From a candidate division FCPU426 bacterium (GTDB lineage: Bacteria; Oederibacteriota; PGYV01; Palsa-1178): a DNA stretch of 64,000 nucleotides. The number at the start of each line of letters is the position of its first letter. Position 1 is the stretch's first letter. Below, one piece after another: positions 2,631 to 29,221 of this stretch. The stretch is from contig CAWIXE010000002.1 of the NCBI GenBank assembly GCA_963840035.1, positions 192,001 through 256,000 on the forward strand. The letters are read 5' to 3'. Made by a program: the position numbers and the translations under genes. Under the pieces are notes generated by a model. It did not search any database and was not told the origin of the DNA. It was given only the letters and a program-made list of their open reading frames with translations.

Positions 2631-3659
2631 ATGAAAAAACTGAACATCAAGGACATAGCGAAACTTGCCAGGGTTTCTAAGAGCACTGTTTCCAAGGTTA
2701 TAAATAATTATAAAAGCATACCCAAGGCGACAAAAAAACGCATCAATGACATCATTAAAAAGAACAATTACTATTCCTTCGAATCCGCGCATACCCTGGC
2801 AAAAGGCAAAACCGACGTCATAGTTTTTATGGCGCCAAAATACGCCTCGCCTTTCATATCCGAAATACTTGAGGCCTTTGAAACAAGGTCCATCCAGACA
2901 AACCGCTATGTCGAGGATATTATTACATTCTCAACAAGGGGGGACGTAAAAATAAAGGAAGAGCTTTTTAAAAAAATACTCTACGGCAAAAAAGCCGCGG
3001 CTTTAGTCGCGCTTTCCATAAATCCGTCAAAAAAGGTTATTTCGGATTACAAAAAATTCGGAATCCCGATAATCCTTCTTGGCAACATGATGAAAGGCGC
3101 CCACTCTGTCAGGGTTGACAACTTTAAGGGGGCTTTTATGGCCACGGAATACCTTATAAACAGAGGAAAGAAAAACATAGGCTTTATTTCAGGACGGACG
3201 GTTGATGACGGTTCGTGCGATCTGGACCTGTCAATTGTTGAAAGAAGGCTGGGTTTTGAGGCTGCCTTAAGCAAGCACGGAATCCCGCTTAAAAATGAGC
3301 ATATAGAAATAGTGCATGACTTCACATATGAGGACGGCATAGCCGGCTTAAATAACCTGCTGGGAAAAGGCGTCAAGCTTGACGCTGTATTTTGCGCGGC
3401 AGGGGATATAGTGGCTATGGGCGTTATGGAACGGGCTGAAGAGGCAGGCATAAAGATACCGCAGGATCTGGCAGTCATTGGTTTTGACGATATGATGTTT
3501 TCAAAGCACCTGAACCCTCCGCTTACCACGGTTTACCAGCCGATAAAGGAGCTCGGGTCCGTGGCCTTTGACACGGCTGTGGCGGCAATAGAGGGAAAAC
3601 TGGATAAGACACAGGACATAATACTTGAGCCAAAACTGATCGTAAGAAAGTCCGCTTAA
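2631..3659 (+). CDS. LacI-family transcriptional regulator
   Basis: HTH NIKDIAKLARVSKSTVSKVIN; C-terminal IPQDLAVIGFDD...PPLTTV...LIVRKS. Confidence 0.95.
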   Translation: MKKLNIKDIAKLARVSKSTVSKVINNYKSIPKATKKRINDIIKKNNYYSFESAHTLAKGKTDVIVFMAPKYASPFISEILEAFETRSIQTNRYVEDIITFSTRGDVKIKEELFKKILYGKKAAALVALSINPSKKVISDYKKFGIPIILLGNMMKGAHSVRVDNFKGAFMATEYLINRGKKNIGFISGRTVDDGSCDLDLSIVERRLGFEAALSKHGIPLKNEHIEIVHDFTYEDGIAGLNNLLGKGVKLDAVFCAAGDIVAMGVMERAEEAGIKIPQDLAVIGFDDMMFSKHLNPPLTTVYQPIKELGSVAFDTAVAAIEGKLDKTQDIILEPKLIVRKSA

Positions 3660-3674
3660 CCGTATAAATAATAT

Positions 3675-3726
3675 TTGACAACCGCGCGTTAATTTTGTAT
3701 ACTTTGTTAGGAAACCGGTTTCCTAA
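3675..3726 (+). promoter_or_regulatory. Consensus sigma70 promoter followed by a perfect 20-bp LacI-type operator
   Basis: TTGACA(3675)-17-TATACT(3698); palindrome TTAGGAAACCGGTTTCCTAA at 3707-3726 over the expected transcription start. Confidence 0.85.
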
Positions 3727-10898: not shown

Positions 10899-10943
10899 TT
10901 GATTAAGTTGTCATAAAGATGTATAAAATGTTTAGCGCTAAAC
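10899..10943 (+). promoter_or_regulatory. Promoter + LacI-type operator GTTTAGCGCTAAAC
   Basis: TTGATT(10899)-17-TATAAA(10922); perfect 14-bp palindrome at 10930-10943, repeated exactly at 14886 and 27910. Confidence 0.8.
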
Positions 10944-10977: not shown

Positions 10978-13900
10978 GTGAAAAAAGCATTGTTAGTGTT
11001 TTTAGCAGTATCATTACTATCCTCATTTATATATTCTGCCAATACTGATGTGCGCCTGAACTCCCTTGGATTCCTTCCGTCTAATGATAAAATTGCCACA
11101 GTAAAAGCCGCAGGATCCCCGGGAAACTGGTATCTGCTTACATCCCCGGGAAATGTCACGGTTACCTCGGGGACTTTTACCGGGCCGTTTTCCGACGCCC
11201 AGACAGGCGAAAACAACAACCTTTATAAAGCGAATTTTTCCGCGTATACAACTTCCGGAACATTTTACTTAAACGTGCCCAACGTAGGCCGATCGACAAA
11301 TTTTGACATACGCGCGGATGTTTATAACAATCCTTTTATAAATGTATTCAGGGCCATGTATCTGTGGCGCTGCAATACTGCCGTGTCCGGGACTTATAAC
11401 GGAGATACTTTTTCGCATGCCGAATGCCATACGGGTGACGGCAACCTCACCCACTACAATGGTTCAAATACTGTTGTTAACGGAAAAAAAGGGTGGCATG
11501 ACGCGGGCGATTACGGAAAGTATACGATCAACGCGTCAATAACCGTAGGCATGATGTTTCTCGCCTGGGAACAGTTTGGAGCGAACATAAACGCGCTAAA
11601 TTATAACCTTCCTGAGACTGCCCCGGGATATCCGGAGTTCCTCAAGGAAATTAAATATGAGACAGACTGGGTATTTACCATGATGAGGCCTGACGGCGCG
11701 GTATCAGATAAGCTTACATCGCTTGGATTTGACGGTTTTGAGATGCCGGAAAAAGATATACTTGTCAGGTACTTCTCAACTACCGGAACAGCTGATACAG
11801 CCGCGTACTGCGCGATGCTTGCCATGGCTTCGCGCAATTTTCAGCCGTATGACGCGGCATATGCCACAGCGTGTATTACGCATGCCGCGGCGGCATACGC
11901 ATATCTTTCGACACATCCCGCGTGGAGGGCCAGGGTAAACTACGTAACGGCATTGCCGCATGTGGGCGTATTTTCTACGGGCGATTACAGCGGCAGCGAT
12001 GACGCCGCTTTAAGGCTATGGGCAGCGATTGAGATGTGGGAGACTACCGGCAACGCAACCTACCTGGCGGATTTTGAATCGAAAGCGGCTTTATTAGACC
12101 CTAATTATGTAAACGCGGATTTTGACTGGGCAAACCAGAGGAACCTGGCTATGTATACATATGTTCTTTCAAACAGGACCGGCAGGAACGCTACACTGCT
12201 GGCGAAAATCAGGAATAATATTGTTAATACCGCACAATCCATATCCGATACAAGGGACGGACACGCCTATGGCAGGCCCCTTGGAACAAACTATTACTGG
12301 GGTTGTAACGGTTCTGTCGCAAGGCAGTCAATGATACTGCAGATAGCCAACCAGATATCGCCTAACCCGGATTTTCTAAATACAGCGCTTGACGCTATAG
12401 GGTATTTATTCGGAAGGAACATGCATGACAGGTCATATGTAACCGGAATTGGAATCTCACCGCCGATGTTTCCGCATGACAGGCGTTCGGGAGGGGATAC
12501 CGTTACTAATCCGTGGCCGGGGTATTTAGTCGGCGGCTCGTCAGGAAGCCGCGGCGATGACTGGCAGACGGCAAACATGGTTGCCGGACTTCCTGCAGCG
12601 CAGTACTGGACAGACGTGGAGGGGTCATATTCCTCCAATGAAATAGCCATTAACTGGCAGGGCGCGATCATATACGCCCTTGCGGGATTTTTGGGGTCTG
12701 TGGCACCACCGACAAATACGCCGACACCGACTGCGACGATTACAGGAACTCCGCCTACAAAAACAGCTACGCCGACATTTACGGCTGTGCCTACTGCCGG
12801 TTTTGTACTTGCCGACTGCGTGCAGGGGATGTCCTATAACTTAACGGACGGGAACTTAAATGACTCCATCTGGCAGACAGGCAGCTGGAATAATATATCA
12901 ATAATAACGGAAGGAACTCAGGGCGCTGTGACGGCGCGGTTTAAGACGCGCTGGGATTCCAGCGGCATAAAGGTGGCTGTGGATGTAACTGATCCAACTT
13001 TGTGCGGGACTAATACCACCTGGTATAATGACGATGCCGTGGAGATTTACATAGACGCCAATAATAACCATGCCACAACTTATGACCTCAACGATTACCA
13101 GTTCTCCATACGCTATAATGACCCTGTGGTAAGGGAGACAAATAACAGGGTCGGCACTGTGGCAGCCGCCACTTATCATACAGCAACCGGCTACTCGGCG
13201 GAGTTTGACATAAAGTGGTCTGACATCGGGCTTACAGGCGGGGCCGGGGTAAGCATAGGATTTGATGTCGGTATTGACCATGATGAGACATGCGGAGGCA
13301 CAAGGACTGGGGTTTTAATGTGGAACGGAACCGCGACAAACTGGAGCGATACGTCTAATTTCGGGGACCTTTCCACAAGCGCGGCGTGCAACACGCCTAC
13401 AATTACGCCGACATGGACGCCGGCGCCTCCTGTGGCTGCTGAAATTATTGATAATGTCGAGGATGGGAACAGCCAGATCCTTTTAAACGGCGGCAGAAAC
13501 GGCTTCTGGGGGACGTTTGACGACGGCAGCGGTAATATATCGGTAAGCTTCAATGACCCGGGTTATAACAGTTCTTACGCGGCAAACATAACTTCTGACG
13601 GCCTTTTTACCACTTATGCGGGAGTGAGCGTAAATATGCTCAGCCCTTCAGGGCCATATGACGCCTCCGCGTATGACGGCATAAAATTCCGGGTAAAGCT
13701 TGCCGCCAGTTCGGATTACTACCTCCGCGTTAATGTTGTGGATGAGGCCACAAGCACCTCTTATGATTTTTTTGGAATTCTGCTTACTGACCTTACAACA
13801 TCCTGGAAGGAATACACCATAGATTTTGCAACCCTTCAAAATAGCGCAGGTACAGGGCTTAATACGTCAAGGATAGTAAGCATAGAGTTCAGGCCTGATA

Positions 13901-14885: not shown

Positions 14886-14899
14886 GTTTAGCGCTAAAC
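14886..14899. promoter_or_regulatory. LacI-type operator GTTTAGCGCTAAAC
   Basis: Perfect palindrome just upstream of the second GH5 gene. Confidence 0.8.
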
Positions 14900-14924
14900 G
14901 GCAAATAATAAAATGGAGAAACTC

Positions 14925-17015: not shown

Positions 17016-18017
17016 ATGGCTGTTACTTTGGAAGATGTTGCAAAAAAGGCCGGCGTTTCGCACACTACTGTTTCGCTTGTGCTTCATGGGGACAAAAAAA
17101 TAAGCGGCGCGACCCGCGATAAGGTCATGCGCGTCATAGAGGACATGAACTACCACCCGAATTACAACGCCAGAAGCCTGGCAAGGGGCAAGACAAATAC
17201 AGTCGCTATTTTGGCTTCGTTTTTTTCATCACTTTTTGCCACGGATATAATGAAGGGCATGGAGGACGAGGCGATAAATACGGACCTGTCCATAAACCAA
17301 TACTCAACAAGGGGCGAAAAGGACAGGGAAGAGGACCAGCTGGATAAAATATTATACGGAAAGCGCGCCGACGGGCTTGTGGTTATAAGCCTCCAGCCGG
17401 AAATAAAAATTATGAATGAATTTAGGTCCGCAGGCATGCCCGTAGTGCTTATAGAAAGGAAAATGGATGGATTTTCCTCGGTGGGCACGGATAATGAAAA
17501 AGGGGCTTACATGGCGGCCAGCCACCTGATAAGCACGGGAAAGAAAAACATAGCAATCGCGTGCGGACACCTCGACTGCGTGGACTGCATCAACTCCAAG
17601 GAACGCTTTGCCGGGTTTACCAGGGCGCTTAAGGAAAACGGGCTTGAGTTCAGACAAGAGAATTTTTTCCCGACATGGTACGGCTTTGAGGACGGCATCA
17701 GGGTCATGGCGCAGATAACCGGGGAAAAAAGAAAAATAGACGCGCTCTTTTGCGCGAGCGGCGATAACGTGGCTTTAGGAGCCTTGAAAGAAGCTAAGGT
17801 CAGGGGCGTTTCAATACCTGACGACATTGCGATAGTAGGGTATGATGACCTGCTTGTTTCCTCCATGGTACAGCCCGCGCTGACCACCATCAGGCAGCCC
17901 ATTATTAAAATGGGAAGGGAAGCGTTTAACCTGGTTATCAAATCAATGAACAATGAGATAAAAGAGCCGGTGGTGACGACGTTTGAGCCGGAATTAATCA
18001 TAAGGGAAACTGCCTGA
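17016..18017 (+). CDS. LacI-family transcriptional regulator
   Basis: VTLEDVAKKAGVSHTTVSLV; YHPNYNARSL hinge; IPDDIAIVGYDD. Confidence 0.95.
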   Translation: MAVTLEDVAKKAGVSHTTVSLVLHGDKKISGATRDKVMRVIEDMNYHPNYNARSLARGKTNTVAILASFFSSLFATDIMKGMEDEAINTDLSINQYSTRGEKDREEDQLDKILYGKRADGLVVISLQPEIKIMNEFRSAGMPVVLIERKMDGFSSVGTDNEKGAYMAASHLISTGKKNIAIACGHLDCVDCINSKERFAGFTRALKENGLEFRQENFFPTWYGFEDGIRVMAQITGEKRKIDALFCASGDNVALGALKEAKVRGVSIPDDIAIVGYDDLLVSSMVQPALTTIRQPIIKMGREAFNLVIKSMNNEIKEPVVTTFEPELIIRETA

Positions 18018-22293: not shown

Positions 22294-25200
22294 ATGAAAA
22301 TTAAAAGACTTCTTACCATCCTTGCTGCAATCCTTATACTATCTTCATTTATATACCCGTCTGCGACAATCCCGTCACAGGCATGGAACCGCGACGTAGG
22401 CGCCACAGGCTATAAGGACGGCGCGCCCATAGGCGGCTTCGGAGCGGGGACCATCACGTGGAAATACGACGGCATATTTTATAAGGACAGGCTGAAAATA
22501 GGCCATGTCGGGTCCGGGCTTGAAAGCGATAACATAGCATTTACCGACGACGCTACAGCCAGGTTTTATCTGTACCAGAAAACCAGCGGCGCAGGCACAG
22601 CGACAGTAAGAAAACTTGACGCCGCGACTTTAGGCGCGGGACAGGCAAAATATTATTCGCTTTTTCCCATGTCGTGGGTAGATTATTACGGCACACTTTT
22701 TGACGTAAAAGCCACGGTCACCCAGTTTTCGCCCATCATACCAAACGACTACCAGCGCGTCAGCTATCCCATGGGTATTTATGAATGGGAAATAACAAAC
22801 CCGTCAGCCACGCAGTCATATGACGCCTCCATAATGCTTACCTGGAACAATGATTATTCCGGCGTTTCCGCGACTGCCGTGACAAACGGGAATTTTAAGG
22901 GCATAGTCCTGCACAGGACAGGCACGGGCGCGCCAACGCTCGAGACTGAGGGCGAGTTCGCGTTAGGCAGCATAAACGGAAACGGTGTGACAGTAACTGT
23001 CGCCTCATCAACAACAGCCGCAAACCTTGTAACGGATTTTACTACGGACGGAAAACTTAGCGGAACCACCGGGGCGAACACAATAGGCGCGGTATCATTC
23101 GCGGTTACGCTCGCGCCGGGCGAGACTATACGCGTACCAATAGTACTCGCGTGGGACATTCCCATTTACCAGGTGGGAACAGGAGATAAGTGGTGGAAGA
23201 GGTTTACGCGTTACTTCGGCAGGACAGGAAGGAACGCCTGGGCCATGATACAGGAAGCGCTCACAAACCACGCGTCATGGGAATCGCAGATTGACTCATG
23301 GCAGTCCGGAATACTCTCAAACCCTGATTACCCAAACTGGATGAAGTCAATGGTATTCAATGAACTTTATATTTATTTTACAGGAGGGACTGTCTGGGAA
23401 GCGGGGGGAGCTTCAGGGCAGGCTGATGAGGATTCAACCCCTGAAGGCGACATGTTCTCGCACCTGGAATCATATATTTACCCTTTTTACGGCACCTCTG
23501 ACGTGCGTTTCTACGGCTCGTGGGCGCTTTTCATGAACTGGCCCGACATAGACAAGCAGGCAGTAAAACAGTTCTGCGACAGCGTGCAAAATACCAGGAG
23601 TGACAGGGCACCGGGTGAAGGCACGACCGCGCATGACTTAGGCGGCATATACGCGTACAACCCGCCGGGAAACACATGTGTTTTAAACGGGACGCAGGGG
23701 CAGTGGTATTTATTTGACATCTGGAACTGCTACAGGTGGAGGTCGGCCTGCGACTGGAAGGATTTAAATTCAAAACTGGTGCTCATGGTTTACAGGGACT
23801 GGAAATTAAGCGGAAGCACGGACACCGCGTTCCTTAATTACTGCTATAACCCGGTCAAAATAGCCATGGCAAAAGTAAAAAGCCAGGATACCGACGGCAA
23901 GGGCTTGCCTAACTCAACGGGAATTGACCAGACATACGACGACATGGATTTAACAGGGGACACGGCTTACTGCGGAAGCCTTTTTCTTTCCGCGTGTCTT
24001 GCGGCAAAGGAACTCGCGATAGCCGCGGGCGATATCACTGCGGCGAACACATACCAGGCATGGTTTGACCTGGCCGCGCCGAATTTTGAGAACCAGCTGT
24101 GGACGGGTTCTTATTACAAAATAGACACGGGTAGCACCAATACCATGCGCATCATGAGCGACCAGCTTTGCGGACAGTGGTATGCGGACGCGGTGGGCCT
24201 GCCTGATATCGTGGTAAACACAAGGGCGGCACGGGCATACCAGACAATATACGACAATAACTTCATGAAATTCGGCGGCGGAGCGCACGGGGTTGTGAAT
24301 GTAATGCTGGATAACGGCACCATAGACACATCCACAGTGCAGACAAATGAGTGCTGGGTGGGGACGAGTTGGGGCGATGTCGCGGGCATGATACATATGG
24401 GCATGCTCACTCAGGCAGACGCCATCGGTCAAAGTATTTATAATACCATCTGGAATACGTCACAGTTATGGTTCAGGACACCTGAAGCGTGGAAAGTTGG
24501 CGTTACAAATCAGAGGGCGTATTATTATATGAGGGGAACGACTGTTTGGGCTGTTAAGTGGGCCTATGACCACAAGCCAGTCGTGGGAACGCCGACTAAC
24601 ACTCCGACAGCCACAATGACCAGGACAAATACACCTTATTATTCCCCGACATCCACCAGGACAAATACCCCTTTCGTCAGCTCAACAGCGACACCTACTT
24701 ACACAAATACGCCTGTTTTCACGGCAACGCAGACCTTTACCGCGACCCCTACATTTTCCGTGACAGCGACCTTTAACCCTGTCAGGGTTAACTGCGCAGG
24801 GCCGGGATACGCTTCGCCTTCAACTTTGCTTTACTGGGAGCAGGACCAGGCATACGGCGGCGCGAATACGTGGGGGTATACGGTACTTGGCAATGAAAAT
24901 ACCAGGGCTTACGCGATAAACGGAACTCTTGACGACACGCTTTATCAGTCGGAGCGGTGGAATGCCGCGCTGGGATATTCTTTCGACGTGCCGGACGGGA
25001 CGTACGAGGTAACGCTGAAATTCTGCGAGACATGGTTTGGCATTCCGGCAAACGGCGGGGGCGGGGCATTAAGCAGGCGGTTTAACGTGGCTCTTGAAGG
25101 CACGCAGGTGCTTACTAATTTTGACATTTACGCTGCCGCGGGTAACGCGGCGAGCACTGCCGTGGACAGGGTTTTTAACGTGACGGTTACTGACGGCACG

Positions 25201-26106
25201 CTGAATATAAATCTTACTTCCGGGTTAAGCGACAACCCTCTAATAAATGCCATACAGGTTTTAAGGCTGTTGCCGAGCCCGACTCATACGCCGTCATATA
25301 CCGCTACTAACACAAACACTCCGGCGGAGTCGCCGACATTTACAGGGACAAAAACACAGACCAGCACAGCAACGCCAACATCAACCGGGACTTATACGGC
25401 TACTGACACGCCTGTGGTCACGCCAACTCATACGAACACAAAGACCGCAACGCCTTCTGTCACGGAGACTTATACCATCACGGTTTTTTCCCCGACATTC
25501 ACACTGACAGCCACAGCAACAGGGACCATGACTGTGACCAGGACTGATACCCCCGTGTACAGCCCGACATCGACGCCTACGGCGACGCTTACCATGACAG
25601 GCTCGCCGCCAACGCAGACTTTTACGCCTAGTGTGACACAAACCCATACGCTGCTGCCGACAGGGACATTTACGGCTACAAGGACAAGCACGCCTGTAAA
25701 TACGGCCACGCTGACAAGCACAAAAGTCCCGAGCGCAACTTATACGCGCACGGCCCAGCCGACAAATACAAATACTCCGCAGGCTACTGCCACCCCCACT
25801 GCCACAAAAACAGCCGCGTCTGTAAAAAAAGACCCGGAGACATGGCCAAACCCGGTTGACGCTGACACGCAGGACCTTACTGTCGCGTATTACACGGCAG
25901 GCGGAAGCAAGGTGTTTTTCAGGGTCTATACGGTTAATTACAGGCTCATAACCCAGGTACAGTGGAACAATGTGCCGCAGGGATATAATGAAGGGACCGT
26001 TGACAGGCAGTACTTAAGGAAGCTCGCCAGCGGCATGTACTATTTTGTGGTGGTCTCTGATTCTGGGGAGAGTACAAAGTTGGGGAAGTTTGTGGTAATT
26101 AGGTAG
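22294..26106 (+). CDS. Secreted GH116 beta-glucosidase-like + malectin + Thr/Pro stalk + WPNP C-terminal domain
   Basis: GAPIGGFGAG, FSPIIP, HLESY...DVRFYGS, WKDLNSKLVLMVYRDW, DQTYDD, FRTPEA...YMR motifs of GH116. Confidence 0.88.
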   Translation: MKIKRLLTILAAILILSSFIYPSATIPSQAWNRDVGATGYKDGAPIGGFGAGTITWKYDGIFYKDRLKIGHVGSGLESDNIAFTDDATARFYLYQKTSGAGTATVRKLDAATLGAGQAKYYSLFPMSWVDYYGTLFDVKATVTQFSPIIPNDYQRVSYPMGIYEWEITNPSATQSYDASIMLTWNNDYSGVSATAVTNGNFKGIVLHRTGTGAPTLETEGEFALGSINGNGVTVTVASSTTAANLVTDFTTDGKLSGTTGANTIGAVSFAVTLAPGETIRVPIVLAWDIPIYQVGTGDKWWKRFTRYFGRTGRNAWAMIQEALTNHASWESQIDSWQSGILSNPDYPNWMKSMVFNELYIYFTGGTVWEAGGASGQADEDSTPEGDMFSHLESYIYPFYGTSDVRFYGSWALFMNWPDIDKQAVKQFCDSVQNTRSDRAPGEGTTAHDLGGIYAYNPPGNTCVLNGTQGQWYLFDIWNCYRWRSACDWKDLNSKLVLMVYRDWKLSGSTDTAFLNYCYNPVKIAMAKVKSQDTDGKGLPNSTGIDQTYDDMDLTGDTAYCGSLFLSACLAAKELAIAAGDITAANTYQAWFDLAAPNFENQLWTGSYYKIDTGSTNTMRIMSDQLCGQWYADAVGLPDIVVNTRAARAYQTIYDNNFMKFGGGAHGVVNVMLDNGTIDTSTVQTNECWVGTSWGDVAGMIHMGMLTQADAIGQSIYNTIWNTSQLWFRTPEAWKVGVTNQRAYYYMRGTTVWAVKWAYDHKPVVGTPTNTPTATMTRTNTPYYSPTSTRTNTPFVSSTATPTYTNTPVFTATQTFTATPTFSVTATFNPVRVNCAGPGYASPSTLLYWEQDQAYGGANTWGYTVLGNENTRAYAINGTLDDTLYQSERWNAALGYSFDVPDGTYEVTLKFCETWFGIPANGGGGALSRRFNVALEGTQVLTNFDIYAAAGNAASTAVDRVFNVTVTDGTLNINLTSGLSDNPLINAIQVLRLLPSPTHTPSYTATNTNTPAESPTFTGTKTQTSTATPTSTGTYTATDTPVVTPTHTNTKTATPSVTETYTITVFSPTFTLTATATGTMTVTRTDTPVYSPTSTPTATLTMTGSPPTQTFTPSVTQTHTLLPTGTFTATRTSTPVNTATLTSTKVPSATYTRTAQPTNTNTPQATATPTATKTAASVKKDPETWPNPVDADTQDLTVAYYTAGGSKVFFRVYTVNYRLITQVQWNNVPQGYNEGTVDRQYLRKLASGMYYFVVVSDSGESTKLGKFVVIR

Positions 26107-26148: not shown

Positions 26149-26177
26149 TTGATTTATAACGAATGTTCGTGTATTAT
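26149..26177 (+). promoter_or_regulatory. Sigma70-type promoter of the HTH-less LacI gene
   Basis: TTGATT-17-TATTAT; AGGGAG RBS before ATG 26213. Confidence 0.6.
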
Positions 26178-26212
26178 GAACAATGTAAATAAGGAAACCA
26201 AGGGAGAATATA

Positions 26213-27061
26213 ATGGCTGAAAAAATGCATACCATAGCGGTCGTATCAAAACTTTTTTCAAACTACTTTGTCCATGAAGTGTTGCAGGGTATTGAGCCGC
26301 ATCTTTTTAAGGGACCTTATGAAGTGAATTATTACCCCACGACCGGCAGGATTGACATAGAAAAAGACATGCTGAAATCCATATTATATGAAAAACGCGC
26401 TGACGCGCTCATATCCATATCCACTCCCATGGACGAAGAGCTCCTGCAGGCTTATAAGAACTCAAACATCCCCGTGGTTTTCATCGAGGAGTCCTGCGAG
26501 GGCGGCCACACCGTAAAAGTGGACAATGTAAAGGGCGCTTACATCGCTACGGAGTACCTCATAAAAAAAGGGCATAAGAAGATCGGAATATTGGCCGGCG
26601 AATTTCTGGATAAAAGGACAAATTCCATGGTAATAGAGAGGCTCATAGGATACAGGAAGGCAATAGAGGATTATGGAATGGCGCTTAATGAAAAATTCGT
26701 GAAGCATGTGGCATATTACTCATTTGAAGAAGGACGCCAGAAAATGAAGGAACTCCTGGACGAAAAAGCCGGGCTCGACGCGGTATTCTGCGCGGCAGGG
26801 GACTTAACAGCCATGGGCGTCATAGAAGAGCTCCGCGAGAACCACATAAAAGTACCCGAAGATATTTCAGTGGTGGGGTATGACGACATATTAACGGCGC
26901 AGTATAATAAGCCGGCCCTTACAACGGTAAAGCAGCCTATAGAACAGATGGGCTCAGAGGCATTTGAGCTCGCCGTTAAGTGCATAACCGGGGAAGTAAG
27001 CATGGACGAACATAGACTTATAATACTGGACCCGAAGTTTATAGTGCGGAAGTCAGCGTAA
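26213..27061 (+). CDS. LacI-family sugar-binding domain protein lacking the N-terminal HTH
   Basis: Begins directly at TIAVV (first core strand); rest collinear with neighbouring LacI paralogs (ILYEKRADALISIS, AVFCAAGD, VPEDISVVGYDD, IVRKSA). Confidence 0.85.
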   Translation: MAEKMHTIAVVSKLFSNYFVHEVLQGIEPHLFKGPYEVNYYPTTGRIDIEKDMLKSILYEKRADALISISTPMDEELLQAYKNSNIPVVFIEESCEGGHTVKVDNVKGAYIATEYLIKKGHKKIGILAGEFLDKRTNSMVIERLIGYRKAIEDYGMALNEKFVKHVAYYSFEEGRQKMKELLDEKAGLDAVFCAAGDLTAMGVIEELRENHIKVPEDISVVGYDDILTAQYNKPALTTVKQPIEQMGSEAFELAVKCITGEVSMDEHRLIILDPKFIVRKSA

Positions 27062-27115: not shown

Positions 27116-27325
27116 GGTGGCTCAAGGTGGGTGGGAGGGCTTAAACGGCTCAAGTGGTTATGAAGGAAATTGGTTGGCTCAATGTGGGTGGGAAGGCTTA
27201 AACGGCTCAAGTGGTTGTGAAGGAAGCTGGGTGGCTCAAGGTGGGTGGGAAGGCTTAGACAGCTCAAGTGTTTTGAAGGAAGCTGGGTGGCTCAAGGTAT
27301 TGGGATAGCTTTGAAGGCTCAAGGG
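27116..27325. repeat. Tandem ~57-bp G-rich repeats (GGCTCAAG core), about 3.5 units
   Basis: Units start at 27116, 27173, 27230 and 27286. Confidence 0.85.
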
Positions 27326-27337
27326 AAATGGGGGGGT

Positions 27338-27715
27338 ATGAAAACATTTGAGGACTTGATTGTATATCAGGAGGCAAGAAAATTAATAAATGAGGTTTAT
27401 GCTTTAACAAATAGCGGGGGATTTGGAAGGGATTTTGATTTGGTCAGGCAGATACGCAGGGCAGCGGTTTCTATTGCGGCAAATGTGGCTGAAGGTTTTG
27501 AAAGAGGGTCAAATACGGAATTTATTCAATACCTGTATATAGCTAAAGGCTCCTGCGGAGAATTACGAGTCGAACTTGGAATCGCTTGTGATCAAAAATA
27601 TATTGAAGTTGTTGATTTTAACAGGTTAAAAGAAAAATGCGTTAGTGTCAGCTCAATGTTAAGTAATTTTATCAAAAGTTTGAAAAAATCAGGACTTAAA
27701 GGCCCAAAAAGGTAA
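27338..27715 (+). CDS. Four-helix-bundle protein (23S rRNA IVP/bAvd-like family)
   Basis: FEDLIVYQEA, QIRRAAVSIAANVAEGFER, FIQYLYIAKGSCGE; 125 aa from ATG 27338. Confidence 0.92.
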   Translation: MKTFEDLIVYQEARKLINEVYALTNSGGFGRDFDLVRQIRRAAVSIAANVAEGFERGSNTEFIQYLYIAKGSCGELRVELGIACDQKYIEVVDFNRLKEKCVSVSSMLSNFIKSLKKSGLKGPKR

Positions 27716-27725
27716 TGGCTGTTGT

Positions 27726-27837
27726 GCCAACCAACGTTCCATCACACCCACTTGAGCCTTGAGCCAACCAACGTTCTATCACACCCACTTGAGCCTTGAG
27801 CCAACCAACGTTCCATCACATCCACTTGAGCCTTGAG
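27726..27837. repeat. Three tandem 37-bp C-rich repeats, inverted relative to the upstream array
   Basis: gccaaccaacgttccatcacacccacttgagccttga at 27726, 27763 and 27800; reverse complement matches the ggctcaagtggttgtgaaggaagctgggtggc segments upstream. Confidence 0.88.
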
Positions 27838-27873
27838 ACAACCATGTTTTTAATAACCAACATAAAAATCCCC

Positions 27874-27923
27874 TTGCATTTTCACAATGAAAATGGTACT
27901 ATTATTTTAGTTTAGCGCTAAAC
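27874..27923 (+). promoter_or_regulatory. Promoter + operator GTTTAGCGCTAAAC upstream of LacI 28214 (probable autoregulation)
   Basis: TTGCAT(27874)-17-TACTAT(27897) with TG extension; palindrome at 27910-27923. Confidence 0.8.
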
Positions 27924-27998
27924 CAAATTAGGCATGTTTAACGTTAAGAGTTGAAAGTTTAGGGTTATAGACATTGTTAAGAAGATGTGTTTACAGTT

Positions 27999-28113
27999 TG
28001 TCATTGCGAGGAGCCGCAGTTGGCCTATGGCGACGAAGCAATCTCGTTTTCTCCTTCTGGAACAGCGAGATTGCTTCGTCGGCAAGTAACAAAAACGCCT
28101 CCTCGCAATGACA
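27999..28113. repeat. TGTCATTGCGAG REP-like inverted doublet
   Basis: tgtcattgcgaggag...gacgaagcaatctcg paired with cgagattgcttcgtc...ctcctcgcaatgaca; same family as 36981-37890. Confidence 0.88.
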
Positions 28114-28213
28114 AGCATAAGACTATAAACAGAACATGTTAACATTAAAGGTTATAGACAGGAATGTATCTGCTGTAACCATAAATTTTAAACTGTATTA
28201 AAGGAGGCCGTTC

Positions 28214-29221
28214 ATGAGCATCACGATTAAAGACGTCGCAAAGGCCGCGGGAGTTTCTCATACGACTGTTTCCATGGTCATACATAATGACAAAAGAATA
28301 ACCGCCGACACAAAAAAGAAAGTACAGGCTGCCATAGAAGACCTGAAATACCACCCGAATTATCTGGCCCGCGGGCTGGTGCAGGGCAAGTCAAATAACA
28401 TAGCGATTATGGCTACTTTTTTTTCCTCGTTTTTTGAGATGAATTTTTTGAAAGGAATAGAACAGCAAATCGGGGATTCCGAGTACCAGATAAATGAGTA
28501 TTCCACCAGGGGCAAGCCCGGGGTAAAGAAACATATCATGGAGCAGATATTATACGGGAAGAGGGCTGACGCGCTCATATCTCTTTCAATAAAGCCGGAT
28601 AAGGAAACGCTGGAAGAGTTCAAAAACAACGGTATTCCCGTGATTTTAATAGAGGAAGAAATGAAGGGCGCCCATTCGCTTAAGACGGATAATTACAAAG
28701 GCGGCTTCATGGCCACGGAGTACCTCCTCCAGAAATCGAGAAAAAAGATCGGCATTATAGTGGGCCAGATAAAAGGCGAAGAAGTCGGGACCAGCCCGGA
28801 AGACCGGTTCAAAGGTTATAAAAAGGCCCTTGATGAATTCAATGTCCCGTTTGACCCGAATCTTGTGTATGAAGTAAAGGATTTTGATTTTAAGGACGGA
28901 AAAGAAGGGCTCAAAAAATTCCTTTCGTCCGTAAAAAAACTTGACGCTGTTTTTTGCGCTGCCGGTGACTTTACCGCGATGGGCGTGCTGGAAGAGGCCC
29001 GAAAAATGGGCATTAAGATACCCCAGGACCTGGCGGTAGTCGGATATGATGACCTTGAAATGTCCGCTGTGGTAAACCCGCCGCTGACAACGATAAAGCA
29101 GTCAATAACCGAGATCGGGGCTGAAGCCTTTAAGATAGCGGTAGCTGCAGTTGAAGGCAAATTAAAGGAAACTAAGCACATTGTTTTGCAGCCGGAACTG
29201 GTTGTACGGGAAAGTGCGTAA
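28214..29221 (+). CDS. LacI-family transcriptional regulator
   Basis: ITIKDVAKAAGVSHTTVSMV; close paralog of 17016. Confidence 0.95.
   Translation: MSITIKDVAKAAGVSHTTVSMVIHNDKRITADTKKKVQAAIEDLKYHPNYLARGLVQGKSNNIAIMATFFSSFFEMNFLKGIEQQIGDSEYQINEYSTRGKPGVKKHIMEQILYGKRADALISLSIKPDKETLEEFKNNGIPVILIEEEMKGAHSLKTDNYKGGFMATEYLLQKSRKKIGIIVGQIKGEEVGTSPEDRFKGYKKALDEFNVPFDPNLVYEVKDFDFKDGKEGLKKFLSSVKKLDAVFCAAGDFTAMGVLEEARKMGIKIPQDLAVVGYDDLEMSAVVNPPLTTIKQSITEIGAEAFKIAVAAVEGKLKETKHIVLQPELVVRESA

What the first reader, a model, noticed from the sequence alone, without database searches (positions are those of the whole stretch)
26149..27061. HTH-less LacI paralog with its own promoter and RBS
Seen: the 282-aa protein starts exactly at the ligand-binding core and has no signal peptide. 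It has a clean promoter and RBS, and only ~106 bp separate it from the previous stop, so there is no room for a frameshifted HTH. It is closely similar to the three full LacIs. Known: LacI proteins dimerise through this core. Inference: an anti-repressor that poisons heterodimers, or a cytoplasmic inducer sink, adding a layer to cellulase control.
Basis: partly seen in the sequence, partly recalled or inferred. Interest (0 to 1): 0.7.

Follow-up and report, generated by a model that had tools for sequence, protein, structure and literature searches.

The report
Headless LacI repressor paralogs, repeatedly evolved
A cellulose-degrading bacterium keeps an intact, strongly conserved copy of a sugar-sensing repressor that has no DNA-binding head, one of six such genes in its genome, and it likely works by binding a sugar and then acting on a full-length repressor, an untested kind of control for this protein family.

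Summary
Confirmed. Window 26213-27061 encodes a 282-aa LacI regulatory core with no HTH, no hinge and no signal peptide. It is not a recent truncation. Orthologues in 11 of 24 genomes of the order (three families, 62-91% identity) are all headless. They are under strong purifying selection (dN/dS 0.015-0.077 within the family), and 7 of 11 share one promoter motif. The sugar pocket and N-subdomain dimer face are as conserved as in a full repressor; the hinge-contact patch is relaxed.

The larger finding is that this genome has 6 headless cores among 22 LacI cores. Four relatives have 2-5 each, and a single origin is rejected (AU p = 0.0002).

Identity to the full LacIs is only 37-43%, and the interface mimics no paralog. 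The cellulase link holds mainly in one family: 4 of 11 carriers lack the neighbouring repressor.

Best model (0.4): a ligand-gated antagonist of a full-length LacI, like CerN/CerM in LuxR. Rivals are a sensor for another partner or an inducer buffer. My searches found no paper on natural headless LacIs. This scan noted the same kind of gene before in another genome (e1-1363928).

The parts
26213..27061 (+). Headless LacI-family core gene (282 aa; 'clade A'): sugar-binding/dimerisation core only, no HTH, hinge or signal peptide
   Evidence: orthologues
26149..26154 (+). Putative -35 hexamer TTGATT
   Evidence: 9/12 consensus; motif shared by 7 of 11 orthologue upstream regions
26172..26177 (+). 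Putative -10 hexamer TATTAT, directly preceded by TG
26201..26206 (+). Ribosome-binding site AGGGAG, 6 nt before the ATG
   Evidence: an AGGGA/AGGAG/AGAGG-type site precedes all 11 orthologues
22294..26106 (+). Upstream neighbour: secreted GH116 beta-glucosidase-like enzyme with malectin domain (context)
   Evidence: near the orthologue in G005 and G007, about 11-12 kb away in G003 and G010
28214..29221 (+). Full-length LacI, candidate partner in family f1; probably autoregulated
   Evidence: directly follows the headless gene in G005, G001, G006 and L158; orthologues in 7 of 24 genomes
27910..27923 (.). Perfect palindrome GTTTAGCGCTAAAC, putative LacI operator upstream of 28214
   Evidence: kept upstream of 28214 orthologues in G001, G002, G006
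10930..10943 (.). Same putative operator, just after the putative -10 of the GH9 gene at 10978
14886..14899 (.). Same putative operator, before the GH5 gene at 14913
17016..18017 (+). Full-length LacI with the same recognition helix (VSHTTVS) as 28214; second candidate reader of the operator
2631..3659 (+). Third full-length LacI of the window (context); a different palindrome at 3707-3726 follows it

Best explanation
The gene encodes a conserved LacI core with no DNA-binding head and no signal peptide, which likely binds a sugar in the cytoplasm and likely then binds a full-length LacI paralog, lowering that repressor's hold on its operators. Shown: the anatomy, the age, the purifying selection, retention of the pocket and N-subdomain face, relaxation of the hinge-contact patch, and repeated origin of such genes in this lineage. 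Inferred: that the ligand is a sugar (perhaps a beta-glucoside or cello-oligosaccharide, from the GH116/GH9/GH5 context and CelR as the closest structure), that the partner is a LacI paralog, and that the effect is anti-repression gated by ligand, as CerN is for CerM. In family f1 the likeliest targets are 28214 or 17016, the candidate readers of the three GTTTAGCGCTAAAC sites. Elsewhere it would have to be a more widespread paralog such as G000:C2:328737.
For: (1) All 11 genomic orthologues and all 9 protein clusters at 62-89% identity are headless. (2) dN/dS is 0.015-0.077 in the 16 unsaturated of 21 within-family pairs. dN is lower than in the core of the neighbouring full LacI in 9 of 10 pairs, so more than a pocket is being kept. 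(3) Over 9 shared genomes, mean identity is 0.95 at pocket positions and 0.92 at N-subdomain interface positions, against 0.93 and 0.94 for a full repressor. Hinge-contact positions fall to 0.71 against 1.00 (position classes mapped from recalled LacI/PurR structures through the alignment). Residues 6-45 are the most invariant segment, 75%. (4) Headless cores arose several times inside one expanded LacI family, where partners are plentiful: 9 changes by parsimony, at least 4 forced, single origin rejected at p-AU 0.00023. (5) One clade mixes headless members with members whose HTH is kept but has an acidic recognition helix and a broken hinge (P0043, P0048), so DNA-binding-null cores come in two forms. 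(6) The headless gene directly precedes a full LacI in G005, G001, G006 and L158, and in G000 apart from an inserted gene. (7) Precedent at low identity: CerN lacks the HTH, is 31% identical to CerM, and antagonises it AHL-dependently (PMC11655674, discussion read).
Against: The interface is not a mimic of any paralog: best identity 0.32, full-versus-full mean 0.26. A conserved private interface fits a homodimer just as well. 4 of 11 carrier genomes lack a 28214 orthologue, and none of those 4 has the exact operator. No full-length paralog was found that tracks with clade A: the lineages shared by the carriers G000, G003, G010 and G012 are also in G018, which lacks it. All 24 genomes have GH9 genes but 13 have no clade A match with this query. 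In headless family B the N-interface is relaxed (0.45), so one mechanism may not cover all headless families. LacI/GalR paralogs are generally taken to dimerise only with themselves (recalled, not from a call).
Confidence: 0.4

Rival explanations
1. It is a homodimeric cytoplasmic sugar sensor whose output goes to a non-LacI partner (an anti-sigma factor, a kinase, a transporter or a sugar-processing enzyme), using the surface left free by loss of the head.
For: Pocket and N-subdomain face are conserved but unlike any paralog. The gene is monocistronic with its own promoter in varied neighbourhoods, and sits near two-component genes in G010, G012 and G022. LacI cores occur fused to other output domains among the hits (core-core-LuxR P0178). 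CytR shows that a LacI core can route ligand binding to a protein contact (PMC3505978, passages).
Against: No partner gene travels with it. The two-component neighbours look different between G010 and G012 (N-terminal sequences compared by eye). The small excisionase-type HTH gene next to it is seen only in G010 and L163. The helix that binds HPr in CcpA has Glu at the Arg303 position (recalled numbering), although the genome has an HPr kinase.
Confidence: 0.25
2. It is an inducer buffer: a homodimer that binds the inducing sugar and sets a threshold or delay for the full-length repressors without touching them.
For: Pocket conserved at 0.95. Its own promoter carries no copy of the local operator, so expression may be constitutive. 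It needs no cognate partner, which fits the lack of co-occurrence.
Against: Codon adaptation is at the 75th percentile, within the range of its paralogs (9th-99th); this is a weak test. Its pocket residues differ from those of 28214 and of the universal paralog, so it may not share their ligand. A pure sink does not obviously need the whole protein to evolve more slowly than a working repressor core.
Confidence: 0.2
3. It is a ligand-independent dominant-negative subunit of the TrlR-mimic kind that simply titrates a cognate repressor.
For: Lacks the HTH and keeps the dimer face. Adjacent to a full LacI in several genomes.
Against: TrlR is 88% identical to TraR (PMC11655674); here the best paralog is 46% identical. 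The pocket is under selection, which a ligand-blind poison would not need.
Confidence: 0.1
4. It is a decaying truncation or a mis-called start.
For: Headless calls in databases are often fragments (general knowledge); 19 of the 150 listed representatives were fragments or other architectures.
Against: 281-282 aa in all 11 genomes, intact frame, dN/dS far below 1, conserved promoter and RBS, and no HTH remnant upstream.
Confidence: 0.02

Closest known systems
LacI/GalR repressors, closest solved structure CelR-cellobiose (PDB 5YSZ), then PurR, RbsR, CcpA
   Same: Same two-lobed core: model pLDDT 94, Foldseek TM 0.87 and 32% identity to 5YSZ; Pfam Peripla_BP_1/3/4; pocket Arg, Asp, Gln and aromatic residues kept.
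   Different: No HTH (PF00356) or hinge, so it cannot be the operator-binding repressor. The family survey defines LacI-TFs by both domains, and the passages I saw mention no headless members (PMC4052901). HTH-less cores in the PDB are, as I recall, engineered truncations.
CerN/CerM (LuxR family, Cereibacter sphaeroides; PMC11655674)
   Same: Intact HTH-less paralog that keeps its ligand domain, has low identity to the full regulator (31% there, 37-46% here) and is often encoded close to it.
   Different: Different fold and ligand (AHL). The CerN-CerM interaction is shown experimentally, while here partner and ligand are inferred. Here there are many independent headless families in one lineage.
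TrlR/TraR (Agrobacterium) and FleT/FleQ (as described in PMC11655674 and PMC13043044)
   Same: Paralog without the DNA-binding domain that acts through hetero-oligomers with the full regulator.
   Different: TrlR is a near copy (88%) of its target; this protein is an old, diverged lineage with an interface unlike any paralog. FleT is an AAA+ enhancer-binding protein.
Periplasmic sugar-binding proteins of ABC transporters (type I fold)
   Same: Same fold and Pfam matches, no HTH.
   Different: No signal peptide, no sugar ABC permease beside it, and it nests among LacI repressors in the tree.

Membership tests
LacI/GalR transcription factor | N-terminal HTH domain PF00356 | tested here: not met
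LacI/GalR transcription factor | Hinge helix/linker before the core | tested here: not met
   only about 5 residues precede the first core strand in all 11 orthologues
LacI/GalR transcription factor | Effector-binding core PF00532/PF13377/PF13407 with the type I binding-protein fold | tested here: met
LacI/GalR transcription factor | Conserved ligand-pocket residues (F19, E92, R143, Y169, D224, Q241) | tested here: met
   invariant in 11 of 11 orthologues; mapping to PurR through, residue roles recalled
LacI/GalR transcription factor | Dimerises through the core | not testable with these tools
   interface positions conserved; oligomeric state needs SEC-MALS
Periplasmic sugar-binding protein | Signal peptide or lipobox | tested here: not met
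   hydropathy scan, (no dedicated predictor was available)
Periplasmic sugar-binding protein | Linked sugar ABC permease genes | tested here: not met
   neighbourhoods; some contigs are short
CerN-like ligand-gated antagonist | Intact paralog lacking the DNA-binding domain, ligand site kept | tested here: met
CerN-like ligand-gated antagonist | Consistent linkage to one cognate full-length regulator | tested here: inconclusive
   next to a 28214 orthologue in G000, G001, G005, G006; 4 of 11 carriers lack that orthologue
CerN-like ligand-gated antagonist | Ligand-dependent binding to the regulator and loss of its DNA binding | not testable with these tools
   needs pull-down and EMSA
TrlR-like dominant-negative copy | Near identity to the target regulator | tested here: not met
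   best 46% overall, at most 0.32 at interface positions against 88% for TrlR
CcpA-like HPr-Ser-P receptor | Basic HPr-binding residues on the last long helix | tested here: not met
   Glu252 at the Arg303-equivalent position; CcpA numbering and alignment recalled, not from a call
Pseudogene | Stops, frameshifts or relaxed selection | tested here: not met

The most novel reading that the evidence does not exclude
Goldiibacteriota-type cellulose degraders have repeatedly turned LacI repressors into headless, sugar-gated anti-repressors. Together these form a second, protein-protein layer over an expanded LacI network, up to 5 of 11 family members in one genome, letting one operator integrate sugars that its own repressor cannot sense. 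It would be a natural microprotein-like control layer for the textbook LacI family.
Probability: 0.3. Interest if true: 0.8.

Novelty: new variant of a known kind. Interest (0 to 1): 0.57.

Why it matters
LacI/GalR proteins are the textbook case of one-protein sensing plus DNA binding, and are defined by having both domains. A conserved class that has dropped the head at least four times, yet keeps pocket and dimer face under strong selection, must act through ligand and probably protein contacts. The family is easy to purify, and a candidate repressor pair and a perfect operator lie in the same window, so the test is short. If the antagonist model holds, it extends the CerN/TrlR/FleT logic to sugar sensing and explains part of how an uncultured cellulolytic lineage gates its cellulases. 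It would also offer ligand-gated anti-repressor parts for LacI/GalR circuits. If it is a buffer or a sensor for another partner, it is still an undescribed use of the core.

Tried and rejected
Complex prediction: two copies of full-length 28214 plus one headless chain gave 'no answer' (score 0.01, mark 0.32, controls not folded). This is no evidence either way.

RNA runs: no RNA holder was listed. This is no evidence on expression, and read laying was not used.

The single-sequence structure model was poor (pLDDT 44) and was dropped for the alignment-based one.

Split-regulator idea (a separate HTH gene supplies the head): no free LacI HTH in G000. The 64-aa excisionase-type gene upstream occurs only in G010 and L163, and its two G000 homologues lie elsewhere. 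Rejected as a general explanation.

An operator inside the gene's own promoter (the ACGAA-TG-TTCGT spacer palindrome) is not conserved in orthologues. Rejected.

CcpA/HPr route: HPr kinase is present but the basic residues are not. Codon adaptation and RBS energy were uninformative, and several automatic start picks in that script were wrong. Net charge of the core (-9) is close to that of full paralogs (-8, -7), so there is no sign of DNA mimicry.

Co-occurrence search for a cognate repressor found none. The tree dropped near-duplicates and four fragments and has weak deep nodes; it was used only as a lead.

Literature: 10 searches found no paper on natural HTH-less LacI proteins. Most subscription papers are not in the library, I saw only listings for most hits, and no supplements were read.

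Look-up of earlier findings by sequence gave nothing.

Full report
The observation. The window is G000:C2:192001-256000. It holds a cellulase-rich cluster: GH9, GH5, GH116 and three full LacI genes. The organism is Goldiibacteriota-like, judged from the source name of a 70% identical relative (P0007). That lineage is described as rich in cellulases (PMC7031533, section 7 read; the words LacI and regulat- do not occur in its main text). ORF 26213-27061 matches only the LacI core families and lacks PF00356. It starts about five residues before the first core strand, has no hydrophobic leader, and has no HTH remnant in 600 nt upstream. The alignment-based model is confident (pLDDT 94). Its best structural match is CelR-cellobiose, TM 0.87, followed by PurR, CcpA and RbsR. 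Identity to the window's full LacIs is 37-43%, ordinary for paralogs here (mean 0.37 over 120 pairs).

It is old and selected. Of 91 database hits, the 9 at 62-89% identity are all 281-282 aa without HTH; the best full-length hits are at most 45% (lengths 155-494 searched). Of 61 genomes searched, 11 hold an orthologue, all among the 24 of the order: 7 of 8 in family f1, 1 of 1 in f4, 3 of 4 in f6. Their open frames are 282-296 aa. dS is near saturation, and 20 of 55 pairs could not be corrected. The other 35 give dN/dS 0.015-0.214, the 16 within f1 give 0.015-0.077, and the least saturated pair gives 0.019. dN is lower than in the core of the neighbouring full LacI in 9 of 10 pairs. The promoter alone is only a 9/12 match, but one motif precedes 7 of 11 orthologues despite different upstream genes and occurs 4 times in the genome (motif chosen after seeing the sequences).

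What is conserved. I classed positions using recalled LacI/PurR structure roles, mapped through the PurR alignment, so the classes are approximate. Over 9 shared genomes, clade A has identity 0.95 in the pocket, 0.92 at the N-subdomain dimer face, 0.61 at the C-subdomain face and 0.71 at hinge-contact positions. The universal full repressor (C2:328737 group) has 0.93, 0.94, 0.79 and 1.00. So the ligand site and the allosteric dimer face are kept while the head-docking patch has relaxed. Against my preferred model, the face resembles no paralog (best 0.32, background 0.26).

It is a lineage-wide habit. G000 has 22 LacI cores, 16 with HTH and 6 without. The other five also begin without a leader, and each has a promoter-like upstream by eye. 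Their orthologues are headless too: family B in 18 of 24 genomes, C in 9 of 24 (two have longer N-termini with no HTH hit), D in 5 of 24, E only in G000. Full inventories of four relatives give headless/full counts of 2/15 (plus one contig-edge fragment), 2/5 (plus two split genes), 5/6 and 3/7. A 67-row tree left out G003, the split genes and fragments (LG+G4, quick search). It needs 9 changes of head state, at least 4 forced by starred branches. Holding 21 headless rows plus one degenerate-head row together, with one distant headless row left out, is rejected at p-AU 0.00023. One clade mixes headless proteins with P0043 and P0048, whose HTH is retained (84% identical to each other) but has an acidic recognition helix and an altered hinge. 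Among the best 150 of 82,979 hits in the 50%-representative library, 101 have an HTH, 30 are core-only at 265-310 aa and 19 are other. These lack genomic context, so some may be mis-called. The Atlas lists HTH-free clusters labelled Goldiibacteriota, Bacillota and Bacteroidota, a lead that the trait is wider.

The cellulase link. A perfect palindrome, GTTTAGCGCTAAAC, occurs 3 times in the window against 0.01 expected and nowhere else exactly in G000. The sites lie before GH9 10978, GH5 14913 and LacI 28214. It has the central-CG form of LacI operators (recalled). It is found exactly in 6 of 24 genomes, all in f1. 28214 and 17016 share a recognition helix, so either could read it. No copy precedes the headless gene. 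The headless gene directly precedes the 28214 orthologue in G005, G001 and G006, lies 8.6 kb from it in G003, and lies near GH116 in G005 and G007. In G012, G022 and G023 it sits beside a hydrolase-like gene, and in G012 and G022 also a two-component pair. 28214 orthologues (68% or more) exist in only 7 of 24 genomes, so 4 of 11 carriers lack it. All 24 genomes have GH9. The link to cellulase control is therefore plausible in f1 and not general.

Mechanism. A headless core cannot bind operators, so it acts through ligand, through contacts, or both. I favour a ligand-gated antagonist of a full paralog (0.4). Pocket and dimer face are both under repressor-level constraint, the losses recur where many paralogs exist, and CerN does this to CerM at 31% identity (PMC11655674, passages and discussion; TrlR also in PMC13043044, passages). 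A distant HTH-core-core fusion (P0115) shows that one head can go with two cores, but it is not from this subfamily and is only a lead. A sensor for a non-LacI partner (0.25) and an inducer buffer (0.2) explain the private interface and the lack of a co-occurring repressor at least as well. A ligand-blind TrlR mimic (0.1) and decay (0.02) are unlikely. Ligand, partner and direction of effect are all inferred.

Novelty. Headless paralog regulators are known in the LuxR and enhancer-binding families. The LacI family survey defines members by both domains, and the passages I saw mention no headless ones (PMC4052901). Ten searches found no report of natural headless LacIs, within a library that lacks most subscription papers; supplements were not read. 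That is unchecked and is not independent support. Verdict: a real, conserved, recurrent feature; a new variant of a known kind of regulator; mechanism open and directly testable.

Noticed in passing
window 10930-10943, 14886-14899, 27910-27923: Three exact copies of the palindrome GTTTAGCGCTAAAC define a small putative LacI regulon (GH9, GH5, LacI 28214). Weaker intergenic copies with 2 mismatches lie at C1:325675, C2:65091 and C2:348669.
   Followed up: partly
window 3707-3726: Perfect 20-bp palindrome TTAGGAAACCGGTTTCCTAA between LacI 2631 and an outer-membrane beta-barrel gene followed by an alginate-lyase-like gene; likely the operator of 2631.
   Followed up: no
window 27118-27844: A low-GC four-helix-bundle (23S rRNA IVP, PF05635) gene, probable start 27338, is flanked by three 57-nt direct repeats on the left and three copies at 37-nt spacing in inverted orientation on the right. 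It separates the headless gene from LacI 28214 only in this genome.
   Followed up: partly
P0043, P0048; L042:957-1352 (G010): LacI proteins with a retained but degenerate HTH: acidic ED-x-VLKV recognition helix and altered hinge. They belong to, or in the G010 case resemble, a clade that also has fully headless members. In G010 the gene directly follows GH116 and is split by in-frame stops.
   Followed up: partly
G000:C3:87465-88292 (L050): Headless family B is the most widespread (18 of 24 genomes), lies among housekeeping genes rather than CAZymes, keeps its pocket (0.86) but has a relaxed N-subdomain face (0.45), so it may work differently from clade A.
   Followed up: partly
P0115, P0144, P0154, P0162, P0173, P0178: Proteins with two tandem LacI cores: one with an N-terminal LacI HTH, one with a C-terminal LuxR HTH, others with no Pfam HTH.
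   Followed up: no
G000:C1:725603 and 725659: Two exact copies of the palindrome TATGAACGTTCATA 56 nt apart, about 1.5 kb after LacI C1:723119.
   Followed up: no
window 27998-28114: A 49-bp-arm inverted repeat between the promoter/operator and the start of LacI 28214; similar sequence lies upstream of headless family B at C3:87444. Probably a REP-like element.
   Followed up: no
Goldiibacteriota LacI family (alignment A3): Most paralogs have FCAAGD where typical LacIs have a sugar-binding Asn (recalled), a subfamily signature shared by headless and full members.
   Followed up: no
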